A stretch of 64,000 bases of DNA. It comes from Thermoplasmata archaeon (GTDB lineage Archaea; Thermoplasmatota; E2; DHVEG-1). Made by a program: the position numbers and the translations under genes. Location of the stretch: NCBI GenBank assembly GCA_020054495.1, contig JAHWGK010000006.1, positions 4,829-68,828 on the forward strand, read 5' to 3'. This document shows positions 21,604 through 28,710 of the stretch, one piece after another (position 1 is the first letter of the stretch; the number at the start of each line of letters is the position of its first letter). The notes under the pieces were generated by a model. It was not told the DNA's origin, did not search any database, and worked only from the letters and a program-made list of their open reading frames with translations.

Positions 21604-22545
21604 ATGAAGGAGCATCCAAAGACCAGCAAATTTGATAATTTACCCAATTGGCAGTTTGTATTAATGATGATGGTTGCTGTAGTTGTATGGGCTCTTGCAT
21701 TTCCATTCATTAAAATCGGATTGGAAGAACTTTCATTTATCAACCTGACAATAATGAGATTTTTCGTGGTTTGTTGTATTCTTTTTTTTGTTCTTATTCT
21801 ACAAAAAAAAAGATTCTCCAAACTACAAAAGAAAGATATACTTCCAATATTCCTACTAGGGCTCCTAGGAGTAATAGCATATCATCTAGGATTAAATTAT
21901 GGTGAACAATTCATATCTCCGGGTACAGCTAGCTTAATAATTGCTACAATTCCAGTACAAATCGTAATATTAGCAGTGATTTTTCTTAAAGAAAAAATAA
22001 CCCTTATAAAACTAATTGGAATAATAATTTCATTAAGTGGTGTAGTAATAATTTCAATGTGGGGAAAAACCGGTACATCATTAGAGATCGATTATATTTT
22101 TGGAGCCTTAGCAGTTTTAATTGCAGCAACAACAGGCGCAATATATACAATAGTGGGAAAAAAATTCTTAGAACGTTACTCAGGGCTATCTTTGACTGTT
22201 TACGCAATGCTTTTAGGAAGTATTGGATTAATACCAACTATTAATAATTCACTTTTTGATCAAGTTTCAAAAATGTCAATAAATGGATGGTTTGCTGTTT
22301 TATTCTTAGGGATTTTTTCTACAGTTATAGGATATACAATTTGGTATGTAGCTTTAAAAATAAAAAATGCAAGTGAAATAAGTATCTATCTCTATGCAAT
22401 CCCAGTGCTGTCTACAATATTCAGTTATTTTATGTTTGGGCAAGAAATTACTTTAATGTTTATTCTTGGAGGAGCTCTAGTAATAATGGGTGTTGTAATT
22501 GTTAATAAGAGAACTGATAAGCAGTTGAACAATAAAATTGATTAA
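21604..22545 (+). CDS. EamA/DMT-family transporter
   Basis: 313 aa, about 10 TM, with a two-fold internal EamA repeat pattern. Confidence 0.8.
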   Translation: MKEHPKTSKFDNLPNWQFVLMMMVAVVVWALAFPFIKIGLEELSFINLTIMRFFVVCCILFFVLILQKKRFSKLQKKDILPIFLLGLLGVIAYHLGLNYGEQFISPGTASLIIATIPVQIVILAVIFLKEKITLIKLIGIIISLSGVVIISMWGKTGTSLEIDYIFGALAVLIAATTGAIYTIVGKKFLERYSGLSLTVYAMLLGSIGLIPTINNSLFDQVSKMSINGWFAVLFLGIFSTVIGYTIWYVALKIKNASEISIYLYAIPVLSTIFSYFMFGQEITLMFILGGALVIMGVVIVNKRTDKQLNNKID

Positions 22546-22711
22546 GGTTTTTCTAGTAACACGTTTTTCTCGCAAAAATTAGCACTTTCTTTCGAGAGTC
22601 CTCCTGTTAATATAAACCTCTGTCGGCAGTTCCTTATTACAAATAAAAACAAAATTTTATTAAACATACAATTATTGAAAAATAAAGGAAAATAAAGAGG
22701 TAATACATAGG

Positions 22712-22891
22712 ATGAATAAAGACAGATTTAGAATAACAGTAAGCAAAGTAATTATACAAACCCTTGACGAATACTGTAAATTAGAAAACAGGGACAGAAG
22801 TAACATGATAGAAAAAATGATAGTATTCTATGACAAAATAACAAAAGATAAAAGAAAATATGATATTATGAACAATAACAAAAATATTTAA
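22712..22891 (+). CDS. ribbon-helix-helix (CopG/Arc-like) DNA-binding mini-protein
   Basis: 59-aa ORF, below the track cut-off: MNKDRFRITVSKVIIQTLDEYCKLENRDRSNMIEKMIVFY.. It has the N-terminal beta-strand (RITVS) and two helices typical of RHH proteins. AAAGAGG lies 9 nt upstream of the ATG. Confidence 0.6.
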   Translation: MNKDRFRITVSKVIIQTLDEYCKLENRDRSNMIEKMIVFYDKITKDKRKYDIMNNNKNI

Positions 22892-23007
22892 TAATCAAAA
22901 AAAATAGTTATTTTCTCTCCCTTTTATTTAAAAATAAATAATAAAGAAACTTATAATCTATATTGATATTCATTATATACTGCAATAAATAAGGGTAAGG
23001 ATTAACA

Positions 23008-24333
23008 ATGGATGTTAAATTATATGCTCTTGGAGGTTATGAAGAAGTCGGTCGAAACATGACGTGTCTAGAGATTGGTAATGAAGCAGTAATTCTTGAT
23101 ATGGGCGTGTACATGGATCGCTTTATCCCACTCCAAGACCAAATACAACAATGTTCAACACAAACCCTAATCAAAGAAGATGTTATCCCAGATGATAGAC
23201 CTATTAATCATCTTCGAAAGAAAATGAAAGCAATAATACTTAGTCATGCTCATCTTGATCATATTGGAGCAGCTTATTGGCTTTCATCAAATTATAATTG
23301 CCCAATTTATACTACACCTTATACTAATAAAATTTTACAGCAAAGAGAAAAAAATAATCAATTACAACTGAAAAATAAAATCATTAGCATCACTCCAAAT
23401 TCATCTTATAAAATATCTGATAAAATCGAAATCGAATTTATTCATGTTACACATTCTGTTATTCAATCATCAATGATTAATATCATTACATCAGAGGGAA
23501 ATGTTTTATATTCTCTTGATTACAAATTTGATAATCATCCAGTAATCGGTCAAACAACAAATAAACAACGATTAAGAGAACTTGGAAAAGAACACATGTT
23601 AGCTCTCATCGTTGATTCAACGAATGCTGAAAAAGAAAATAAAACATATTCAGAGTCGGTTGCTCGAGAGATGCTTAGAGATGTTGTCTTAGGTATGGAA
23701 ACAGAGAAACATGGAGTTATCGTTTCAACTTTTTCTTCTCATATCGCCCGTTTAAAAACAATTTTAGACGTATCAAAAGACCTTGGTAGAGATACCGTAT
23801 TTTTAGGTAGGTCACTTCATGAATACATTAGTGCAGCTGAACAATTAGATTTTGTAAATTTTTCTGAAAAGGCTGAGATCATTAAAAATCCATATCGTTC
23901 AAAAAAACGATTAGATGAAATCAATAAAAACAGGGATAAATATCTTGTTGTTGCAACAGGTAGTCAAGGTGAACCAAATGCAACGATTTCTAAGATTGTA
24001 AATGAAGATATTCCCCTTAGGATTAAATCTGATGATTTTATAATCTTTGCATGTGGAGTTATCCCTACTCCATCAATCCAGGCAAATAGGGGGATTTTAG
24101 AAAATAAGATCCATCATAAAAAGGGAAGAATCTTCAAAGATGTCCATGTCTCTGGACATGCATCCCGGGAAGACATTAGAGATTTAATTAAAATTGTTTC
24201 ACCAGAAAACATTATTCCAGCTCATGGCGATATAAAAAAATTGGCATCAGTTGCAACACTTTCTATGGATATGGGATATGCTCTTGGTAAAAATGTGCAT
24301 CTTTTACAGAATGGACGCTATGTAAAACTTTAA
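23008..24333 (+). CDS. rnj: beta-CASP metallo-beta-lactamase ribonuclease (archaeal RNase J type)
   Basis: 441 aa with HxHxDH (SHAHLDHIGA), beta-CASP motifs and a late His (SGHAS, PAHGD). Size and start (MDVKLYALGGYEEVGRN) are typical of archaeal RNase J. Confidence 0.85.
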   Translation: MDVKLYALGGYEEVGRNMTCLEIGNEAVILDMGVYMDRFIPLQDQIQQCSTQTLIKEDVIPDDRPINHLRKKMKAIILSHAHLDHIGAAYWLSSNYNCPIYTTPYTNKILQQREKNNQLQLKNKIISITPNSSYKISDKIEIEFIHVTHSVIQSSMINIITSEGNVLYSLDYKFDNHPVIGQTTNKQRLRELGKEHMLALIVDSTNAEKENKTYSESVAREMLRDVVLGMETEKHGVIVSTFSSHIARLKTILDVSKDLGRDTVFLGRSLHEYISAAEQLDFVNFSEKAEIIKNPYRSKKRLDEINKNRDKYLVVATGSQGEPNATISKIVNEDIPLRIKSDDFIIFACGVIPTPSIQANRGILENKIHHKKGRIFKDVHVSGHASREDIRDLIKIVSPENIIPAHGDIKKLASVATLSMDMGYALGKNVHLLQNGRYVKL

Positions 24334-24432
24334 CAACATCATAATCAGCAAGTAAAAATGTTCTTTTACATAAAATTATAATCATTTAGATTACTTCAGA
24401 TTTATATATCATTAATATAACATCTCCAGAAT

Positions 24433-24573
24433 TTACTTATCTTCATATTTTCTACAATCACGGGGGCATCCTCTAAATGTATTTACTCCAGCTAAACATC
24501 TAAAACCTACTGCTTTTTCATCACCCGATTTGGGAATTGTTATTTTATAATATTTGCAATTTCCGTTTGGCAT
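24433..24573 (-). CDS. Cys-rich mini-protein (46 aa), hypothetical
   Basis: MPNGNCKYYKITIPKSGDEKAVGFRCLAGVNTFRGCPRDCRKYEDK* has four Cys (C6, C26, C36, C40). No clear SD motif, so this is weak. Confidence 0.3.
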   Translation of the reverse strand: MPNGNCKYYKITIPKSGDEKAVGFRCLAGVNTFRGCPRDCRKYEDK

Positions 24574-24690
24574 ATAAAATTAATATTTTATTAAAGATTT
24601 AAAATTTTACCATCATCCTACTATATTCTATAAATGCTCCTTATTACTAAAAAATTTAAAATAAAAAGAAAGAAAAAGAAATAAAAATAG

Positions 24691-24900
24691 TTAATTATGT
24701 ATAATTTGATGTACTTTATGACTCCATTGTTTTAAAAAGCCAGTTTTATTAAGATATCTAAGGGTATATGAGAGTTGTACTGTATTCATTTCTAATTGGT
24801 TTCTAAATTTTTCATTATTCCTGATGAAAGAATATTGTTGTTCTTTCATTAACCTTTTTACTTGTTTCGATTGATTTATTATCCGTTTTAGACTCTGCAT
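24691..24900 (-). CDS. hypothetical small protein (69 aa)
   Basis: ORF track 24691..24915. The internal ATG 24900 (MQSLKRIINQ..) is preceded by GGAGG. Basic and helical. Confidence 0.4.
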   Translation of the reverse strand: MQSLKRIINQSKQVKRLMKEQQYSFIRNNEKFRNQLEMNTVQLSYTLRYLNKTGFLKQWSHKVHQIIHN

Positions 24901-24948
24901 GTTTTTTTCCTCCATTTAATATATCTTACTATATGTTTGATTTCAATT

Positions 24949-25068
24949 TTATTCATTAATCGTAGTTGTATGTGATAATTTAATTTTTTTCTGCCATTCA
25001 TTAGTTTGAGGTAACTCAAAATCATTCATCCAGTCATTAAATGGATCAATATTTCTCATTTTTTTCAT
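24949..25068 (-). CDS. hypothetical mini-protein (39 aa)
   Basis: MKKMRNIDPFNDWMNDFELPQTNEWQKKIKLSHTTTINE*. GGAAGG lies 8 nt upstream of the ATG. Confidence 0.3.
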   Translation of the reverse strand: MKKMRNIDPFNDWMNDFELPQTNEWQKKIKLSHTTTINE

Positions 25069-25128
25069 TTGTTTTTCCTTCCATCAAATCTAAAATTAAG
25101 AATGATATAGTAATAGATGATAGATCTT

Positions 25129-25284
25129 TTAATTTAGCTTTATTTCATTGATATTTTTCCATGCATTATTGACACGTTGTGAAAAAATTATCACTTCTTC
25201 TTTCTTTTTTAATCTATTATTACGTATCCTCTCACGTATTTCGCTTATTCTTTTATCTCTGTGGTTTTTAAAAGCCTCACTCAT
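25129..25284 (-). CDS. hypothetical small basic protein (51 aa)
   Basis: ORF track 25129..25317. ATG 25284 (MSEAFKNHRDKRISEIRERIRNN..) is preceded by GAGGT. Confidence 0.4.
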   Translation of the reverse strand: MSEAFKNHRDKRISEIRERIRNNRLKKKEEVIIFSQRVNNAWKNINEIKLN

Positions 25285-25338
25285 TTTTTCTACCTCTTCT
25301 AAACATATTACTATCAATAATAGTTGAATGTTAACAGA

Positions 25339-25440
25339 TTAAGTGTATACATGTGTTCCAAATTTTATCATGTGATCTTTTAGTGACTCTTCAGTTCTAA
25401 ATTTTCGTCCACAGTAAATACATCTGCAAATTTTTGTCAA
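25339..25440 (-). CDS. 33-aa classical C2H2 zinc-finger mini-protein
   Basis: (M)TKICRCIYCGRKFRTEESLKDHMIKFGTHVYT* fits C-x2-C-x3-F-x5-L-x2-H-x6-H. TTG start with AGGAGG 6 nt upstream (taGGAGGaaaagtTTG). Confidence 0.55.
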   Translation of the reverse strand: MTKICRCIYCGRKFRTEESLKDHMIKFGTHVYT

Positions 25441-25535
25441 ACTTTTCCTCCTAAAAAAAGAGATTTGGGCGATATAATCGTCCTTAATATTCTGATTATC
25501 TCATTTTCTTAGTTTTCAGTGTTAAGTACGTTAAC

Positions 25536-25658
25536 TCATCTATCTGCTCTTGTAAATGTTGCTCTTCGAAAGTCATCTGCTTCTAATGACTGAAGTCGTT
25601 TTTGCTTTCTCCAGTCCCTATCGTTTTCAAAGACCGTAAATTCTCTGTCTATATTCAT
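25536..25658 (-). CDS. hypothetical mini-protein (40 aa)
   Basis: ORF track 25536..25733. ATG 25658 (MNIDREFTVFENDRDWRKQKRLQSLEADDFRR..) is preceded by GGTGA. The longer N-terminus (MYTTIYTTYC..) looks non-coding. Confidence 0.35.
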   Translation of the reverse strand: MNIDREFTVFENDRDWRKQKRLQSLEADDFRRATFTRADR

Positions 25659-25724
25659 TGATTTCACCTGCTCTTTCCGAAATTTATCGGATGATAGTAG
25701 TATGCAGTAGGTAGTATATATCGT

Positions 25725-25775
25725 TGTGTACAAAGGTATATAAATGTGTAAAATTATTACATGTTTGTGTAAAAT
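25725..25775 (+). promoter_or_regulatory. divergent promoter with TATA-like box (TATATAAA, 25737-25744) and three phased TGTGTA(AAAT) repeats; candidate RHH operator
   Basis: TGTGTA occurs at 25725-25730, 25745-25750 and 25766-25771 (spacing 20 and 21 bp). The last two copies extend to the identical 10-mer TGTGTAAAAT, and the final copy ends 1 nt before ATG 25776. Confidence 0.45.
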
Positions 25776-25931
25776 ATGGTAAAAAGAATACGAATGAACA
25801 TATCTTTAACCAAAGAAGAAAATACCCTCATCAAAAAAATCGCGAAAGAAGAAGAAAGACCATATAGCAGACAAATAGTTTACATGATGAATTTCTACAT
25901 AAAAAATAATAAGAAAAATGAGGTGAAATAA
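25776..25931 (+). CDS. ribbon-helix-helix (CopG-like) mini-protein
   Basis: 51 aa: MVKRIRMNISLTKEENTLIKKIAKEEERPYSRQIVYMMNFYIKNN.. The pattern is RHH (beta-strand MNISL, helix, PYSRQIV helix). Its stop abuts the next ATG (TAAATG). Confidence 0.6.
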   Translation: MVKRIRMNISLTKEENTLIKKIAKEEERPYSRQIVYMMNFYIKNNKKNEVK

Positions 25932-26129
25932 ATGAAATATATATGTAATCGATGTGCTAAAATTTTTCAGGCAAATGACATAACCATTCATTATACGACA
26001 GGTGACAATGGATTAGAAATTGTTGCTATTTGTAAATTGTGTTTAGAAAGATACTTGGAGAAAACAAAGGTACATACTGATAGAAAAGAAGATGAAAATG
26101 AAAGAATGAAAATGAAAAGGAAATGGTAG
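25932..26129 (+). CDS. zinc-ribbon mini-protein (CxxC..CxxC) with Lys/Glu-rich tail
   Basis: 65 aa: MKYICNRCAKIF..VAICKLCLERY.. with two CxxC pairs 25 residues apart. Contiguous with the RHH gene. Confidence 0.55.
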   Translation: MKYICNRCAKIFQANDITIHYTTGDNGLEIVAICKLCLERYLEKTKVHTDRKEDENERMKMKRKW

Positions 26130-26169
26130 TTAAACAAATCCAAGCGAGAAATCCCCAACTTTTAACATA

Positions 26170-26269
26170 ACTTTTGCACTTTTTTGAAAAACAAGGAGAA
26201 AAGGTCAGTAGAGTAAATATTGCTATCTCTCCTTACATATGCCTGATTAATGACAAAAAGTGCAAAAGT
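26170..26269. repeat. nested inverted repeat (15-bp perfect outer arms, 7-bp inner arms)
   Basis: ACTTTTGCACTTTTT (26170-26184) is the exact reverse complement of AAAAAGTGCAAAAGT (26255-26269). Inner pair: AAGGAGA (26193-26199) and TCTCCTT (26228-26234). Confidence 0.6.
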
Positions 26270-26489
26270 ATTGTTATAAGTTTCCTTTGCATTCTTTTAA
26301 AAACAGGCCTTGTAAGTCAATCAAAAAAGAAAAATATCATCTTCATCAGCAGTTAATAAATTATTTCTAGCGGCAGGTTTAAAGATCAAATGACAAACTT
26401 TTGAAGGAAATACGAGAAATGATTTACATGTAAAGTGCTAATATTCAACGGAAACTATTTAATCAAAAAATTGTTGCATTTTTGATACA

Positions 26490-27728
26490 ATGTACCAGAA
26501 ATGGAATAACAATGTACGGTTAAAACCCAAAATTGTTAGAAAATGTGGAGAGATAAAACCATTGGATATAGTGGTGGGTGTACTCTGTAAAGATGTGGAG
26601 AGTACGATTCTGAATGTGTTAAATGTGGTCAACAAGGGACTCTACAAGTTCTTTCCTGATTTCAAAAAAGCCATCGTAGTCAGTATGGGGTTTTCATCAG
26701 ATGATACTGCCGAAGCAATAGAGCTTTTTCAACCATACAATAGCATAGCAAAAATCGTGACTGATGACATAACGTTGGGTGGCAAAGGCGGTGGTATACG
26801 AACCATTATCGAAATCGCTCATGAAGCTGAAGCAAAAGTAATTGTCTTACTCGATGGAGATCTTCTAAGTATCGAACCAGAATGGATCCAAGCGATTTCA
26901 ACACCCATTATATATGGACGGGCTGATCTTACTGTTCCCCACTATATACGGGATAAGTACGATGGTGTGGTCACCAACAATTTGGTTTATCCCTTTACGA
27001 GAGCAGTATACGGTCTTAACATCAGACAGCCGATTGCAGGTGAATTCGGGTTATCAAGGGATTTATATGAAATTTTACGGAAACATCCGTTATTCCCACC
27101 TGATTTTGGAGTTGACATTTTCATTGTAACCGTAGCAACAGCAGAACAAATGATGATAAGAGAAGGACTGTTTGCTCTCAAAATTCATAGGTCGACGGGA
27201 CGATATTTAGAACCTGAGAAATTTTTAATACCAATGTTTCGGAAGGTAACAGGGAACATGTTTGAACTCGCAAAATACTACGAAGAGCTTTGGAAGAAGA
27301 GAGAGCCAAAGCAGCATAAATCACGGTATAAAGAACATTTCGGCCAAAAACCTATCCCAGTTAACGTAGACATCAATAAATTGAAGAAGACTTTCAAAAA
27401 CGAGTTTACCACATCAAAAATGACGTTCGCACGATTCCTGCCAGATGAGATAATAGCTGCTCTAGATAATATTGCCCATCATATCGAACTATTTGATGCT
27501 GAACTCTGGGCTAATATCGTGTATCATTTTGCAGCGTCTTATAAGAAAATGAAAACCGATTCTGATAAGGATTTGCTCATCGAGTCGTTGAAAACACTTT
27601 GGATTGGTCGATTTGTAAGTTATGCTATTGAAACAAAAGATATGGACATAAATAAGGCAGAACATGTCATTCAAAAATCAGCAGAAATCTTCGAAAAACA
27701 ATTCAGTTATCTCCGTTCTATTTATTAG
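26490..27728 (+). CDS. GT-A fold glycosyltransferase (GT2/GT81-like; specific substrate unknown)
   Basis: 412 aa with a Rossmann-like N-terminal half, a DxD-type LLDGDLL motif and a QPIAGEFGLSRDL segment. It reminds me of glucosylglycerate or mannosylglycerate-type synthases, but I cannot verify that. Confidence 0.5.
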   Translation: MYQKWNNNVRLKPKIVRKCGEIKPLDIVVGVLCKDVESTILNVLNVVNKGLYKFFPDFKKAIVVSMGFSSDDTAEAIELFQPYNSIAKIVTDDITLGGKGGGIRTIIEIAHEAEAKVIVLLDGDLLSIEPEWIQAISTPIIYGRADLTVPHYIRDKYDGVVTNNLVYPFTRAVYGLNIRQPIAGEFGLSRDLYEILRKHPLFPPDFGVDIFIVTVATAEQMMIREGLFALKIHRSTGRYLEPEKFLIPMFRKVTGNMFELAKYYEELWKKREPKQHKSRYKEHFGQKPIPVNVDINKLKKTFKNEFTTSKMTFARFLPDEIIAALDNIAHHIELFDAELWANIVYHFAASYKKMKTDSDKDLLIESLKTLWIGRFVSYAIETKDMDINKAEHVIQKSAEIFEKQFSYLRSIY

Positions 27729-27987
27729 AAGAGATTCTGTACGTATAAACCAATGTGAATTATGAATTTCAAGAAAGGCCTTCGCGTGTTAAATAAAAAC
27801 ATTTTTCATTAGGTGGTTCATTAACCTGTAAGAAATCTTAATTTTTATTGGTAAAAGTGTATTCAAATCTCGTCCCTTGAACCTCAAATATTTAAAAAAC
27901 TATTGTCCAAGTATATGGACCATAAATAGAAAACGTATTATACGAAATACCTAAAAATTGATTAATCAATTATCATTTTCTAAAAAT

Positions 27988-28710
27988 ATGACCAAACTAC
28001 TGTACATGGGCAATATTGAAGGGAACTACATAAAGGAATTTGATGCAATTGTTATAAAAAATAAGAAAGACTATATTTGTCTTGACAAGACTGCATTTTA
28101 CCCTCTTGGCGGAGGGCAACCCTCAGATATTGGCGTATTAGAATGGAACGATAAAAAATCAGAGGTAAAAGAGGTCATCAAAAAAGGAGATACAATAAAA
28201 CACATAATTAAAGGAGAACTACCATCAGTCGGAACAAAAGTCCATGCAACACTAGATTGGCATAGGCGCTACAGCCATATGAAAATGCATACAGCTCAAC
28301 ATATCATATCTGGAATAGTCTTCGATGAATACAACAAAGCACGAACAGTAGGAAACCAGATACATGCAGATTATTCAAGAGTAGACTTTAATCCAGCAAG
28401 TTTTACAGAAAAAGACTTAGAAGATATAGTAAACAAATTTAATAAAATAATAGAACAAAACCTACCAGTAAAAATCTATGAAGAAGAACGAGAAATCCTG
28501 GAAAAAAGAGTTGACCAACAACGATGCAATCTTGATCTACTCCCGAAATTTATAACAAAACTACGAATTGTAGAAATACAAGGATTTGACATTTGCCCAT
28601 GCGCAGGAACACATGTCAAAAACACAAATGAGATAACGAAAATAGATAAAACAAAAAAAGAAAGAAAAGGAAAAGACACAGATCGTATAATTTATTCACT
28701 AAGTAAGTAG
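27988..28710 (+). CDS. alaX: alanyl-tRNA editing protein AlaX (AlaX-M type)
   Basis: Zinc motifs HxxxH (HTAQHIISG) and CxxxH (CPCAGTHV). ATG 27988 (MTKLLYM) is preferred to the TTG at 27958 used in the track. Confidence 0.85.
   Translation: MTKLLYMGNIEGNYIKEFDAIVIKNKKDYICLDKTAFYPLGGGQPSDIGVLEWNDKKSEVKEVIKKGDTIKHIIKGELPSVGTKVHATLDWHRRYSHMKMHTAQHIISGIVFDEYNKARTVGNQIHADYSRVDFNPASFTEKDLEDIVNKFNKIIEQNLPVKIYEEEREILEKRVDQQRCNLDLLPKFITKLRIVEIQGFDICPCAGTHVKNTNEITKIDKTKKERKGKDTDRIIYSLSK

What the first reader, a model, noticed from the sequence alone, without database searches (positions are those of the whole stretch)
24334..26489. 2-kb islet made only of mini-proteins (33-69 aa): RHH, zinc ribbon, C2H2 finger and Cys-rich peptides in two divergent units
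Seen in the sequence: between RNase J and a glycosyltransferase there is no ORF longer than 74 aa. I could read six small minus-strand ORFs: 25536..25658, 25339..25440, 25129..25284, 24949..25068, 24691..24900 and 24433..24573. Five of the six are preceded by GGAGG, GGAAGG, GAGGT or GGTGA motifs. A divergent plus-strand pair (RHH 25776..25931 and zinc ribbon 25932..26129) completes the region. Established knowledge: dense arrays of tiny RHH, Zn-ribbon and C2H2 proteins are typical of archaeal viruses, plasmids and their integrated remnants. Inference: this is either a degraded or very compact mobile-element remnant, or a small-protein regulatory module. No integrase, att repeat or capsid gene is visible, so a provirus cannot be claimed.
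Basis: partly seen in the sequence, partly recalled or inferred. Interest (0 to 1): 0.58.

Follow-up and report, generated by a model that had tools for sequence, protein, structure and literature searches.

The report
Mobile small-protein regulatory cassettes in an archaeal island
The 2-kb stretch of tiny genes is real, and it belongs to a pool of small regulator and zinc-finger gene cassettes that uncultured sediment archaea (Thermoprofundales/MBG-D type) swap between genera, here sitting inside a 5.4-kb insertion rather than a virus.

Summary
Observation confirmed. All eight mini-ORFs are at the stated coordinates. The interval is the longest stretch of this 2.5-Mb assembly without an ORF of 90 aa or more.

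Most of the ORFs are real genes. dN/dS across relatives is 0.05 for RHH51, 0.30 for the zinc ribbon, 0.33 for C2H2, 0.29 for the 69-aa ORF and 0.45 for the 40-aa ORF. The 51-aa and 39-aa ORFs give only weak signals.

The islet lies inside a 5,408-bp insertion (22546-27953). This insertion splits an EamA-AlaX gene pair that is adjacent in 14 of 16 related genera. It is a mosaic: each piece is far closer to a copy in another genus (dS 0-0.7) than core genes are (dS 1-3).

Its core is a 117-bp divergent control region with three phased TGTGTA boxes and two TATA boxes. An RHH + zinc-ribbon operon lies on one side. On the other side lie a 40-aa ORF, a hairpin with a T-run, an SD and then cargo. In relatives this unit is multi-copy and precedes cold-shock, glycogen-synthase-like GT4 and GH57 genes.

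No viral, plasmid or defence match was found. The island also carries a MITE, one tRNA-Leu-3'-end att-like copy, and an RNase J gene 94% identical to that of another genus.

Earlier scan notes on other genomes describe the same leader/micro-ORF module (e1-3795252, e1-4369355, e1-5607126).

The parts
22534..22545 (+). Left copy of the 12-nt direct repeat AAAATTGATTAA (last codons and stop of the EamA gene)
   Evidence: 4 copies in the window against 0.18 expected, two of them exactly flanking the insert. One search shows the sequence context.
22546..27953 (.). 5,408-bp insertion (flexible island) between EamA and AlaX
   Evidence: EamA abuts AlaX in G013 and G006. This holds in 14 of 16 genera that have an AlaX orthologue; hit-to-hit gaps are 16-100 nt in 13 of them and 401 nt in one.
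22712..22891 (+). 59-aa RHH-like gene (RHH0)
   Evidence: Weak RHH_1/RHH_5/HicB-like hits. A homologue lies directly after the GT orthologue in G070.
23008..24333 (+). RNase J gene, horizontally acquired
   Evidence: TIGR00649, 399 bits. Not found at E<=1e-30 in 25 relatives. It is 94% nt / 95% aa identical to G070, with dS 0.21 against 1.7 for a core gene.
24329..24362 (.). Short intergenic repeat (CATCATAATCAGCAAGTAAaAATG) at the junction of the RNase J and Cys46 segments
   Evidence: Further copies occur in G000 and in several relatives, always between genes. A reading as a small ORF was rejected.
24337..24668 (-). Cys46 cassette: own AT-rich promoter region plus the 46-aa four-Cys ORF (24433-24573)
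   Evidence: Window 24337-24613 is 100% nt identical to two contig ends of G070, a different genus; 24603-24668 matches at 98% (65 of 66 nt). One true homologue, P0044, is 59% identical and keeps all four Cys.
24691..24900 (-). 69-aa ORF (o74)
   Evidence: 95% nt identity to G013:C206 (dS 0.03), where it lies with a cold-shock gene between two att-like repeats. dN/dS 0.29 over 5 sequences. 14 clusters in the protein database.
24949..25068 (-). 39-aa ORF (o39)
   Evidence: Conserved after C2H2-o62 in G018, G013 and L032. The coding signature is weak: dN/dS 0.59, n=4.
25129..25284 (-). 51-aa charged ORF (o62)
   Evidence: Conserved string C2H2-o62-o39. dN/dS 0.53, n=5.
25339..25440 (-). 33-aa C2H2-type zinc-finger ORF, TTG start, AGGAGG SD
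   Evidence: Pfam zf-C2H2_4 E 3.5e-5, below the cutoff. dN/dS 0.33, n=8. Homologues keep CxxC...HxxxxxxH.
25443..25535 (-). Conserved 'tail' after o40: hairpin (25467-25483), T7 run (25453-25459), then the SD of the next gene (25447-25452)
   Evidence: Conserved together with o40 in relatives. The hairpin pairs are kept, with one compensatory and several wobble changes.
25536..25658 (-). 40-aa ORF o40 (MNIDREFTVFEND..RKRKRLQ..DDFRR..)
   Evidence: About two-thirds of 32 nucleotide-defined copies keep a similar-length frame. Six carry an alternative 30-aa ORF. A few are shifted or end early in the C-terminal part. dN/dS 0.45. Only 29 protein clusters, all unnamed or 'hypothetical'.
25659..25775 (.). 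117-bp divergent control region: three phased TGTGTA(A/C)A boxes, two TATA boxes, a short 5'UTR hairpin CCGAtaaattTCGG, SD GGTGA
   Evidence: The boxes and TATA elements are the best-conserved positions across 42 unique copies. The region occurs with or without an adjacent RHH gene and in front of different first ORFs.
25776..25931 (+). RHH51, 51-aa ribbon-helix-helix-like repressor candidate
   Evidence: dN/dS 0.05 over 39 unique copies. AF2 gives an extended N-terminus, H13-26 and H32-50. Found in 15 of 36 genera of the family and none outside, 1-7 copies per genome.
25932..26129 (+). ZnR65, 65-aa zinc-ribbon protein with a basic tail; its ATG follows the RHH51 stop directly
   Evidence: C5, C8 and C34 invariant, C37 in at least 90%. 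dN/dS 0.30. In some relatives other small genes take its place.
26166..26273 (.). MITE-like element (two inverted arms of an IS terminus)
   Evidence: The arms match the terminus of an IS that ends at least 10 contigs of this assembly.
26490..27728 (+). Glycosyltransferase (glucosylglycerate/GpgS-like), a relocated or xenologous copy
   Evidence: Relatives carry it in an operon HAD-400aa-GT-phosphoesterase. In G000:C167 the GT is missing from that operon. It is only 65% aa identical to the same-genus G001 copy. GC is 0.39-0.40 against about 0.31 background.
27831..27882 (+). att-like copy of a tRNA-Leu 3' end with a conserved AT-rich prefix
   Evidence: nhmmer E 2.1e-8; it is the only copy in the window. 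The same unit bounds cassettes next to tRNA-Leu genes in G000 and in relatives.
27954..27965 (+). Right copy of the 12-nt direct repeat, 22 nt before the probable AlaX start (ATG 27988)
   Evidence: The same relic lies before AlaX in G023, where EamA is replaced by other genes.

Best explanation
Short version. The islet is a set of genuine small-protein genes. They come from a pool of small gene cassettes that is restricted to this archaeal family and moves horizontally. In this genome they were assembled inside a 5.4-kb insertion between two genes that are normally adjacent.

The functional core is a portable regulatory unit, as follows.
1. A 51-aa RHH protein is co-transcribed with a 65-aa zinc-ribbon protein.
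2. The RHH protein is proposed to bind three helically phased TGTGTA boxes. These boxes overlap the two TATA boxes of a 117-bp divergent control region. Binding would repress both its own operon and the opposite transcript.
3. The opposite transcript starts with a 40-aa ORF.
4. A hairpin plus T-run follows that ORF. It would let only part of transcription run on into SD-led cargo.
5. Here the cargo is C2H2, then the 51-aa, 39-aa and 69-aa ORFs.

In relatives the same control region, with or without the o40 unit, sits in front of cold-shock-domain genes and a ~95-aa ORF of unknown family. The o40 unit also precedes GT4 glycogen-synthase-like and GH57 genes. This suggests a stress or dormancy regulon.

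Shown here: the ORFs; purifying selection on most of them; the insertion; the mosaic origin; low synonymous divergence between genera; multi-copy and patchy distribution; conservation of the boxes; the MITE; the att-like site.

Inferred, not shown: DNA binding by the RHH protein, attenuation at the hairpin, the physiological role, and the route of transfer.
For: The ORFs are real and the stretch is exceptional.

Empty site: EamA abuts AlaX in 14 of 16 genera, and a 12-nt direct repeat flanks the insert.

Mosaic origin with low dS:
- G000 against G006: core genes dS 1.1-2.9, o40 0.24, ZnR65 0.23.
- G000 against G013: core genes 1.0-1.6, o74 0.03, C2H2/o62/o39 0.44-0.70.
- G000 against G070: core gene 1.7, RNase J 0.21, and the Cys46 cassette is identical.

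Distribution: RHH51 occurs in 15 of 36 genera of the family and none outside. It is absent from the same-genus genome (83% complete). It has 1-7 copies per genome, many at contig ends.

Modularity: the control region, the o40+tail unit and the cargo recombine independently.

The boxes and TATA elements are the most conserved positions over 42 copies. The hairpin is conserved.

Cargo in relatives: CSD, GT4 and GH57.

Mobility context: a MITE of an active IS. att-like tRNA-Leu-end copies occur in the island, bound the CSP+o74 cassette in G013, and lie near modules in other genomes.
Against: The island has no recombinase, and only one att-like copy lies in the window. The insertion mechanism is therefore open.

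The 12-nt repeat overlaps a palindrome (TTGATTAATCAA), and it also stands before AlaX in G023. It may be an old site feature rather than a fresh target duplication.

There is no expression or binding data.

The o39 and o62 signals are weak (dN/dS 0.5-0.6, n=4-5). Cys46 rests on one homologue.

All genomes are MAGs. The 100% identity to G070 sits at contig ends, so it could reflect binning or assembly cross-talk.

Low dS in very short genes is noisy.

The RHH assignment is by topology and weak profile hits only.
Confidence: 0.6

Rival explanations
1. The islet is a degraded remnant of an integrated virus or plasmid of Thermoprofundales. The hallmark genes have been lost and only the early/regulatory small genes remain.
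For: The insertion is absent from relatives and has flanking repeats. RHH and zinc-finger minis are common in archaeal mobile elements (established knowledge). The best, though non-significant, structural hits of RHH51 are plasmid pRN1 ORF56 and a ParE-associated RHH. An att-like tRNA-end copy is present.
Against: No integrase, Rep, capsid or packaging gene lies in 22546-27953. No significant PHROG hit was found. IMG/VR gave nothing with RHH51, ZnR65, o40 or a DNA pattern. There is no nucleotide hit in the phage or plasmid collections. In relatives the same modules sit among ordinary metabolic genes such as GT4/GH57. The pieces have different nearest relatives, so this was not one element.
Confidence: 0.12
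2. RHH51-ZnR65 is a type II toxin-antitoxin-like addiction pair. Its selfish spread would explain the multi-copy, patchy and horizontally mobile pattern.
For: It is a two-gene operon with no spacer, with the RHH gene first. It is multi-copy and patchy and has low dS against core genes. A non-significant structural hit is an RHH antitoxin complex, 7etr.
Against: RHH51 is only 51 aa and has no C-terminal toxin-binding extension. ZnR65 matches no toxin family. The partner after the RHH gene varies or is missing. The control region also drives housekeeping-type stress genes.
Confidence: 0.1
3. These are ordinary, vertically inherited core small proteins. Their high nucleotide conservation reflects strong functional constraint, and the local arrangement is only a chromosomal rearrangement.
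For: RHH51 is under very strong purifying selection, dN/dS 0.05. Conserved operator and promoter positions explain part of the non-coding identity. A GH57-GT4-RHH cluster recurs in several genomes.
Against: The module was found in only 15 of 36 genera and not in the same-genus genome. ZnR65 shows 75% aa but 87% nt identity, with dS 0.23 and dN/dS about 0.55. That is the pattern of recent divergence, not of constraint. Identical or 95% identical segments are shared with other genera. The flanks differ between genomes.
Confidence: 0.1

Closest known systems
CopG/Arc/MetJ-type ribbon-helix-helix repressors (e.g. ORF56 of Sulfolobus plasmid pRN1, PDB 2k9i/3ft7)
   Same: About 50 aa, with strand-helix-helix topology. 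The gene sits first in a small operon next to a repeat-bearing promoter. The top structural hits are these proteins.
   Different: There is no significant sequence or structure score. It is not on a plasmid and is not linked to a replicase. The control region is duplicated in front of unrelated cargo genes.
Zinc-finger micro-proteins of Haloferax volcanii (PMC6562870, PMC10716476, PMC11241148)
   Same: They are stand-alone archaeal proteins under 70 aa with two Cys pairs. In Haloferax, deletion mutants affect stress adaptation, biofilm formation and swarming.
   Different: There is no sequence relationship beyond weak DUF7479/DUF7837 hits at E 0.011. The motifs here are CNxC...CxxC and a C2H2 type, not C(P)XCG. 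Here the genes are clustered, multi-copy and exchanged between genera.
Mobile promoters / promoter propagation in prokaryotes (recalled from the literature, not checked here)
   Same: One promoter-bearing non-coding segment recurs in front of non-homologous genes, both within and between genomes.
   Different: Here the unit also carries operator boxes, a cognate repressor gene, a small ORF and a terminator-like hairpin. It is archaeal.
Integron-like or tRNA-linked cassette arrays (earlier scan report e1-4479304: integrase-less cassette arrays bounded by tRNA-Leu 3' ends in a Thermoplasmata genome)
   Same: Copies of a tRNA-Leu 3' end with a conserved prefix bound 1-3-gene cassettes in G000. 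They also bound the CSP+o74 cassette in G013, and one copy lies at the right end of this island.
   Different: The window has no tRNA gene and only one att-like copy. The mini-ORFs inside the islet are not individually bounded by such repeats.
Bacterial leader-peptide attenuators and the long cspA-type leaders of cold-shock genes
   Same: A short ORF is followed by a hairpin plus U-run directly before the SD of the regulated gene. In relatives the same control region drives cold-shock-domain genes.
   Different: No alternative anti-terminator fold was found. The 5'UTR is probably short (about 30 nt). Attenuation of this kind is not established in archaea. The o40 peptide is conserved as a protein, which a pure sensor ORF need not be.

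Membership tests
Ribbon-helix-helix (CopG/Arc/MetJ) superfamily: RHH51 | N-terminal beta-strand followed by two helices in about 45 residues | tested here: met
   The AF2 model from 20 homologues has extended residues 1-12, H13-26 and H32-50, with mean pLDDT 68.
Ribbon-helix-helix (CopG/Arc/MetJ) superfamily: RHH51 | Significant profile or structure match to known RHH families | tested here: inconclusive
   Pfam RHH_5 E 0.1. PHROG Arc-like E 0.0056. The PDB profile search found nothing. The top Foldseek hits are RHH proteins but with E above 1.
Ribbon-helix-helix (CopG/Arc/MetJ) superfamily: RHH51 | Binds repeated operator half-sites in its own promoter | not testable with these tools
   Three phased, highly conserved TGTGTA boxes overlap the TATA boxes. 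Binding was not measured.
C2H2 zinc finger (Pfam zf-C2H2 clan): 33-aa ORF | C-x2-C ... H-x3-6-H spacing and a score above the family threshold | tested here: inconclusive
   The motif is present, and is kept in 5 of 7 family members. The best score is 24.6 bits against a cutoff of 27.
Zinc ribbon: ZnR65 | Two conserved Cys pairs flanking a beta-hairpin region | tested here: met
   C5, C8 and C34 are invariant and C37 is kept in at least 90% of 18 homologues. No curated family is matched.
Provirus or integrated plasmid | Integrase plus replication, capsid or packaging hallmark genes | tested here: not met
   None lies in 22546-27953. No relatives were found in IMG/VR, the phage records or the plasmid records.
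Provirus or integrated plasmid | Insertion bounded by direct repeats and absent from related genomes | tested here: met
   A 12-nt direct repeat flanks the insert, and 14 of 16 genera have an empty site.
Type II toxin-antitoxin pair | Antitoxin with a toxin-neutralising extension, plus a recognisable toxin family | tested here: not met
   RHH51 is a bare 51-aa DNA-binding fold. ZnR65 matches no toxin or defence model.
tRNA-end-bounded cassette array (earlier scan report e1-4479304) | Cassettes each bounded by a copy of the tRNA 3' end, next to the tRNA gene | tested here: not met
   The window has one att-like copy (27831-27882) and no tRNA gene. The feature is met elsewhere in G000, and for the o74+CSP cassette in G013.
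MITE (element at 26166-26273) | Short, non-coding, with terminal inverted repeats matching a resident IS | tested here: met
   The arms align with the terminus of an IS found at 10 or more contig ends. The IS interior encodes a DDE-type transposase N-terminus, judged by eye. The target duplication is unclear (TTTTAA against TTATAA).

The most novel reading that the evidence does not exclude
Thermoprofundales carry a portable regulon. It consists of a mobile operator-promoter cassette with its own RHH repressor and a conserved leader micro-protein followed by an attenuator-like hairpin. The cassette spreads between genera. It wires new cargo to one control circuit: cold-shock, glycogen-type and zinc-finger micro-protein genes. 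The o40/hairpin unit may act as a translation-coupled attenuator, a mechanism not yet established in archaea.
Probability: 0.25. Interest if true: 0.75.

Novelty: new variant of a known kind. Interest (0 to 1): 0.6.

Why it matters
Micro-proteins and their regulation are poorly charted in archaea, and there are no data for the uncultured, globally abundant sediment lineage Thermoprofundales.

This locus shows that a set of unannotated genes of 33-69 aa is conserved, selected, clustered and exchanged between genera. It also shows that one compact control region with its own repressor is re-used in front of stress-type genes.

If the regulatory reading holds, it gives three things:
- a concrete regulon that can be tested in a heterologous host;
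- an example of promoter/operator mobility in archaea;
- a practical warning that ORF-length cut-offs hide a whole gene class in these MAGs.

Tried and rejected
1. Viral or plasmid origin. PHROGs gave only E>=0.0035 hits. IMG/VR scans with RHH51, the ZnR65 and o40 alignments and a degenerate DNA pattern found nothing. blastn against the phage and plasmid collections found nothing.
2. Defence system. No PADLOC hit.
3. Known RNA. No Rfam family and no tRNA in the window.
4. o40 as non-coding RNA only. Rejected, because most nucleotide-defined copies keep the frame. RNAalifold found little beyond the terminator-like hairpin.
5. The 34-nt junction motif as a hidden micro-ORF (..LLADYDV..). Rejected, because the copies share neither a start nor a consistent stop.
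6. o40 function. The ESM Atlas gave only low-recognition pentapeptide-repeat look-alikes, treated as chance. AF2 gave a single low-confidence helix.
7. PDB sequence searches for GT, RHH and ZnR65 were uninformative.
8. Cys46 hits to long repeat proteins are spurious. Only P0044 is a true homologue.
10. A second att-like copy was sought in the window with an nhmmer profile. None was found.
Full report
OBSERVATION

The window comes from a low-GC (about 31%) archaeal MAG. Record titles of related contigs name uncultured Thermoplasmatota such as SM1-50 and SG8-52-3. I read these as the MBG-D/Thermoprofundales type.

Five of the six minus-strand ORFs have an SD 8-9 nt upstream. Spacers of 48-95 nt link o40, C2H2, o62, o39 and o74 into a probable operon. 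That operon ends in a T-rich tract. The Cys-rich ORF has its own AT-rich upstream region. The interval is the longest stretch without any ORF of 90 aa or more in 2.5 Mb of this assembly. GC drops to 0.23-0.27 in its left half.

ARE THE ORFS GENES?

Homologues were collected from relatives by tblastn and tested for selection.

| ORF | dN/dS | unique copies |
|---|---|---|
| RHH51 | 0.05 | 39 |
| ZnR65 | 0.30 | 22 |
| C2H2 | 0.33 | 8 |
| o74 | 0.29 | 5 |
| o40 | 0.45 | 26 |
| o62 | 0.53 | 5 |
| o39 | 0.59 | 4 |

- In an unbiased, nucleotide-defined set of 32 o40 units, about two-thirds keep a similar-length frame. Six carry a different conserved 30-aa ORF at the same place.
- Cys46 has one true homologue, 59% identical with all four Cys kept.
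- o40 and o74 form tiny, unnamed families of 29 and 14 clusters among 5.8 billion proteins.
- The domain labels are plausible but sub-threshold in curated libraries.
- The AF2 model of RHH51 has the expected extended N-terminus and two helices. Its best Foldseek hits are RHH proteins, but the scores are not significant.

THE ISLET LIES IN AN INSERTION

In G013 and G006 the EamA gene abuts the AlaX gene. Among 16 genera with an AlaX orthologue, 14 have EamA directly upstream. The hit-to-hit gap is 16-100 nt in 13 of them and 401 nt in one.

In this genome 5,408 bp (22546-27953) separate the two genes. The insert is flanked by a perfect 12-nt direct repeat, AAAATTGATTAA. The right copy lies 22 nt before the ATG at 27988, which aligns with the AlaX start of relatives. 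G023 keeps the same relic before AlaX, but there EamA is replaced by 5.6 kb of other genes. The site is therefore a recurrent breakpoint.

THE INSERT IS A MOSAIC OF HORIZONTALLY MOVED PIECES

Synonymous divergence (dS) of core genes and of islet pieces, for G000 against three other genera:

| Compared genome | Core genes | Islet pieces |
|---|---|---|
| G006 | 1.1-2.9 | o40 0.24; ZnR65 0.23 |
| G013 | 1.0-1.6 | o74 0.03 (95% nt); C2H2/o62/o39 0.44-0.70 |
| G070 | 1.7 | RNase J 0.21 (94% nt); window 24337-24613 100% identical to two G070 contig ends, 24603-24668 at 98% |

- RNase J was not found in 25 other relatives.
- The glycosyltransferase at the right end is a displaced copy. Relatives carry it in a HAD-400aa-GT-phosphoesterase operon, and in G000:C167 the GT is missing from that operon. 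The island copy is only 65% identical to that of the same-genus genome. It is also GC-rich.

THE REGULATORY CASSETTE

The segment 25443-26138 is 80-87% identical at nucleotide level to copies in at least eight other genera. Flanking core genes are only 65-73% identical. RHH51 occurs in 15 of 36 genera of the family and in none outside it. It has 1-7 copies per genome, often at contig ends.

The unit is modular:
- (i) RHH51 plus the 117-bp control region;
- (ii) o40 plus a 95-nt tail;
- (iii) the cargo.

Over 42 unique copies the most conserved positions are three TACACAA/TGTGTA boxes spaced about 20 nt apart and two TATA boxes. The tail carries a conserved hairpin (GGACGAT-n3-ATCGTCC) with one compensatory change. 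A T-run and then the SD of the next gene follow it directly.

The first ORFs found behind the control region in relatives are o40 variants, a 30-aa ORF, cold-shock-domain proteins and a ~95-aa ORF with no family match. Genes that follow the o40 unit include GT4 glycogen-synthase-like genes, GH57 genes and a 93-aa zinc-ribbon gene. A thermosome-like gene, identified by eye only, follows one o40 unit.

A published analysis lists CspA and a glucosylglycerate synthase among stress genes gained at the ancestral node of Thermoprofundales (PMC9585477). The island's GT gives a weak glucosyl-3-phosphoglycerate-synthase-like hit.

MOBILITY CONTEXT

- The 100-nt inverted repeat at 26166-26273 is a MITE. 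Its arms match the terminus of an IS that ends ten or more contigs of this assembly.
- A lead from an earlier scan report (e1-4479304) was tested here. G000 has copies of the tRNA-Leu 3' end, each with a conserved AT-rich prefix, that bound cassettes next to two tRNA-Leu genes and elsewhere.
- One such copy lies in the island at 27831-27882 (E 2e-8), and it is the only one in the window.
- In G013 the CSP+o74 pair lies between two such copies. Further copies lie near modules in other genomes.
- No recombinase gene is present in the island.

WHAT IT IS NOT

There is no significant PHROG, PADLOC or Rfam match. IMG/VR and the phage and plasmid collections gave nothing. A provirus or plasmid remnant therefore has no positive support. 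Mobile elements of this lineage may, however, be unsampled.

MECHANISM (INFERRED)

RHH51 would bind the phased boxes and repress both divergent promoters. ZnR65 may be a cofactor. The hairpin plus T-run after o40 would set how much transcription continues into the C2H2-o62-o39-o74 string. The cargo seen in relatives points to a stress or dormancy regulon. Transfer probably combines att-type recombination with homologous exchange through the conserved control and tail sequences.

CAVEATS

All the data come from MAGs. Identities at contig ends may include assembly artefacts. The short genes give noisy dS values. Nothing has been tested for expression or binding.

NOVELTY

The components are known kinds: RHH repressors, zinc-finger micro-proteins, genomic islands and MITEs. 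What I found undescribed in any library or paper searched is the combination: a family-restricted, inter-genus mobile operator/promoter/leader-ORF cassette with its own repressor, re-used before stress genes. First readers of this scan had noted the same leader/micro-ORF module on other genomes.

Noticed in passing
window 26166-26273; G000 contig ends C174, C180, C185, C194, C215, C223, C190, C205, C228; C111:120888-121408: A multi-copy IS ends at least ten contigs of this assembly about 50 nt inside the element. Its terminus reads ...AAAAAGTGCAAAAGCCTTG, often next to TTATAA. Its interior looks like a DDE_5/IS701-type transposase (judged by eye). The window's 100-nt inverted repeat is a MITE-like derivative of it.
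   Followed up: yes
window 23008-24333: The RNase J gene is accessory in this family. It was not found in 25 relatives. It is 94% nt identical to a copy in G070 (another genus). It is about 65% nt identical to genes in a different family of the same class.
   Followed up: partly
G000:C167:31400-34200 compared with window 26490-27728: The conserved operon HAD-400aa-GT-metallophosphoesterase-Zn-finger lacks its GT in this genome. The only GT copy is the divergent, GC-rich one in the island.
   Followed up: yes
window 24329-24362; G000 C77:6372, C77:7307, C223:4605; several copies in L071 (G070:C38): A roughly 30-nt imperfectly palindromic intergenic repeat (CATCATAATCAGCAAGTAAtAATG) recurs between genes in several genomes. 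In C77 it lies about 100 nt from att-like tRNA-end copies. Its function is unknown; it could be a terminator or a cassette boundary.
   Followed up: partly
G000 C55:19400-26235, C174:6200-9115, C77:6259-7424: Arrays of 1-3-gene cassettes are bounded by copies of the tRNA-Leu 3' end with a conserved prefix (..CAGGAGAAA..TTTTTTACCGGTAAAA..). They lie next to tRNA-Leu(gag) and tRNA-Leu(caa). The cargo seen by eye includes a multidrug-efflux-like transporter with a small regulator, and a methyltransferase-like gene.
   Followed up: partly
L067 (G070:C26) compared with window 24603-24613: In G070 an 808-nt segment carrying a 164-aa ORF is inserted upstream of the Cys46 gene. It is flanked by an 11-nt direct repeat, AATTTTACCAT.
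   Followed up: no
window 27958-27990: The AlaX-like gene probably starts at ATG 27988 (MTKLLYM..., as in relatives), not at the TTG at 27958. The 30 nt between them contain the palindrome TTGATTAATCAA.
   Followed up: partly
G000 C66:30759-32810; also C226:37044-38334, C111:9664-10504, C172:3544-4618, C178:8854-9670: Other long stretches free of ORFs of 90 aa or more in this genome also hold small genes of the same pool (cold-shock proteins, a ~60-aa family c67, zinc-ribbon ORFs). The genome therefore has several mini-protein islets.
   Followed up: no
L095 (G023:C4:69600-75100): In G023 the EamA gene at this locus is replaced by about 5.6 kb of other genes (three ~380-440-aa genes, a radical-SAM-like gene, an 80-aa ORF). 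The 12-nt relic before AlaX is kept, so the site is a recurrent breakpoint.
   Followed up: partly
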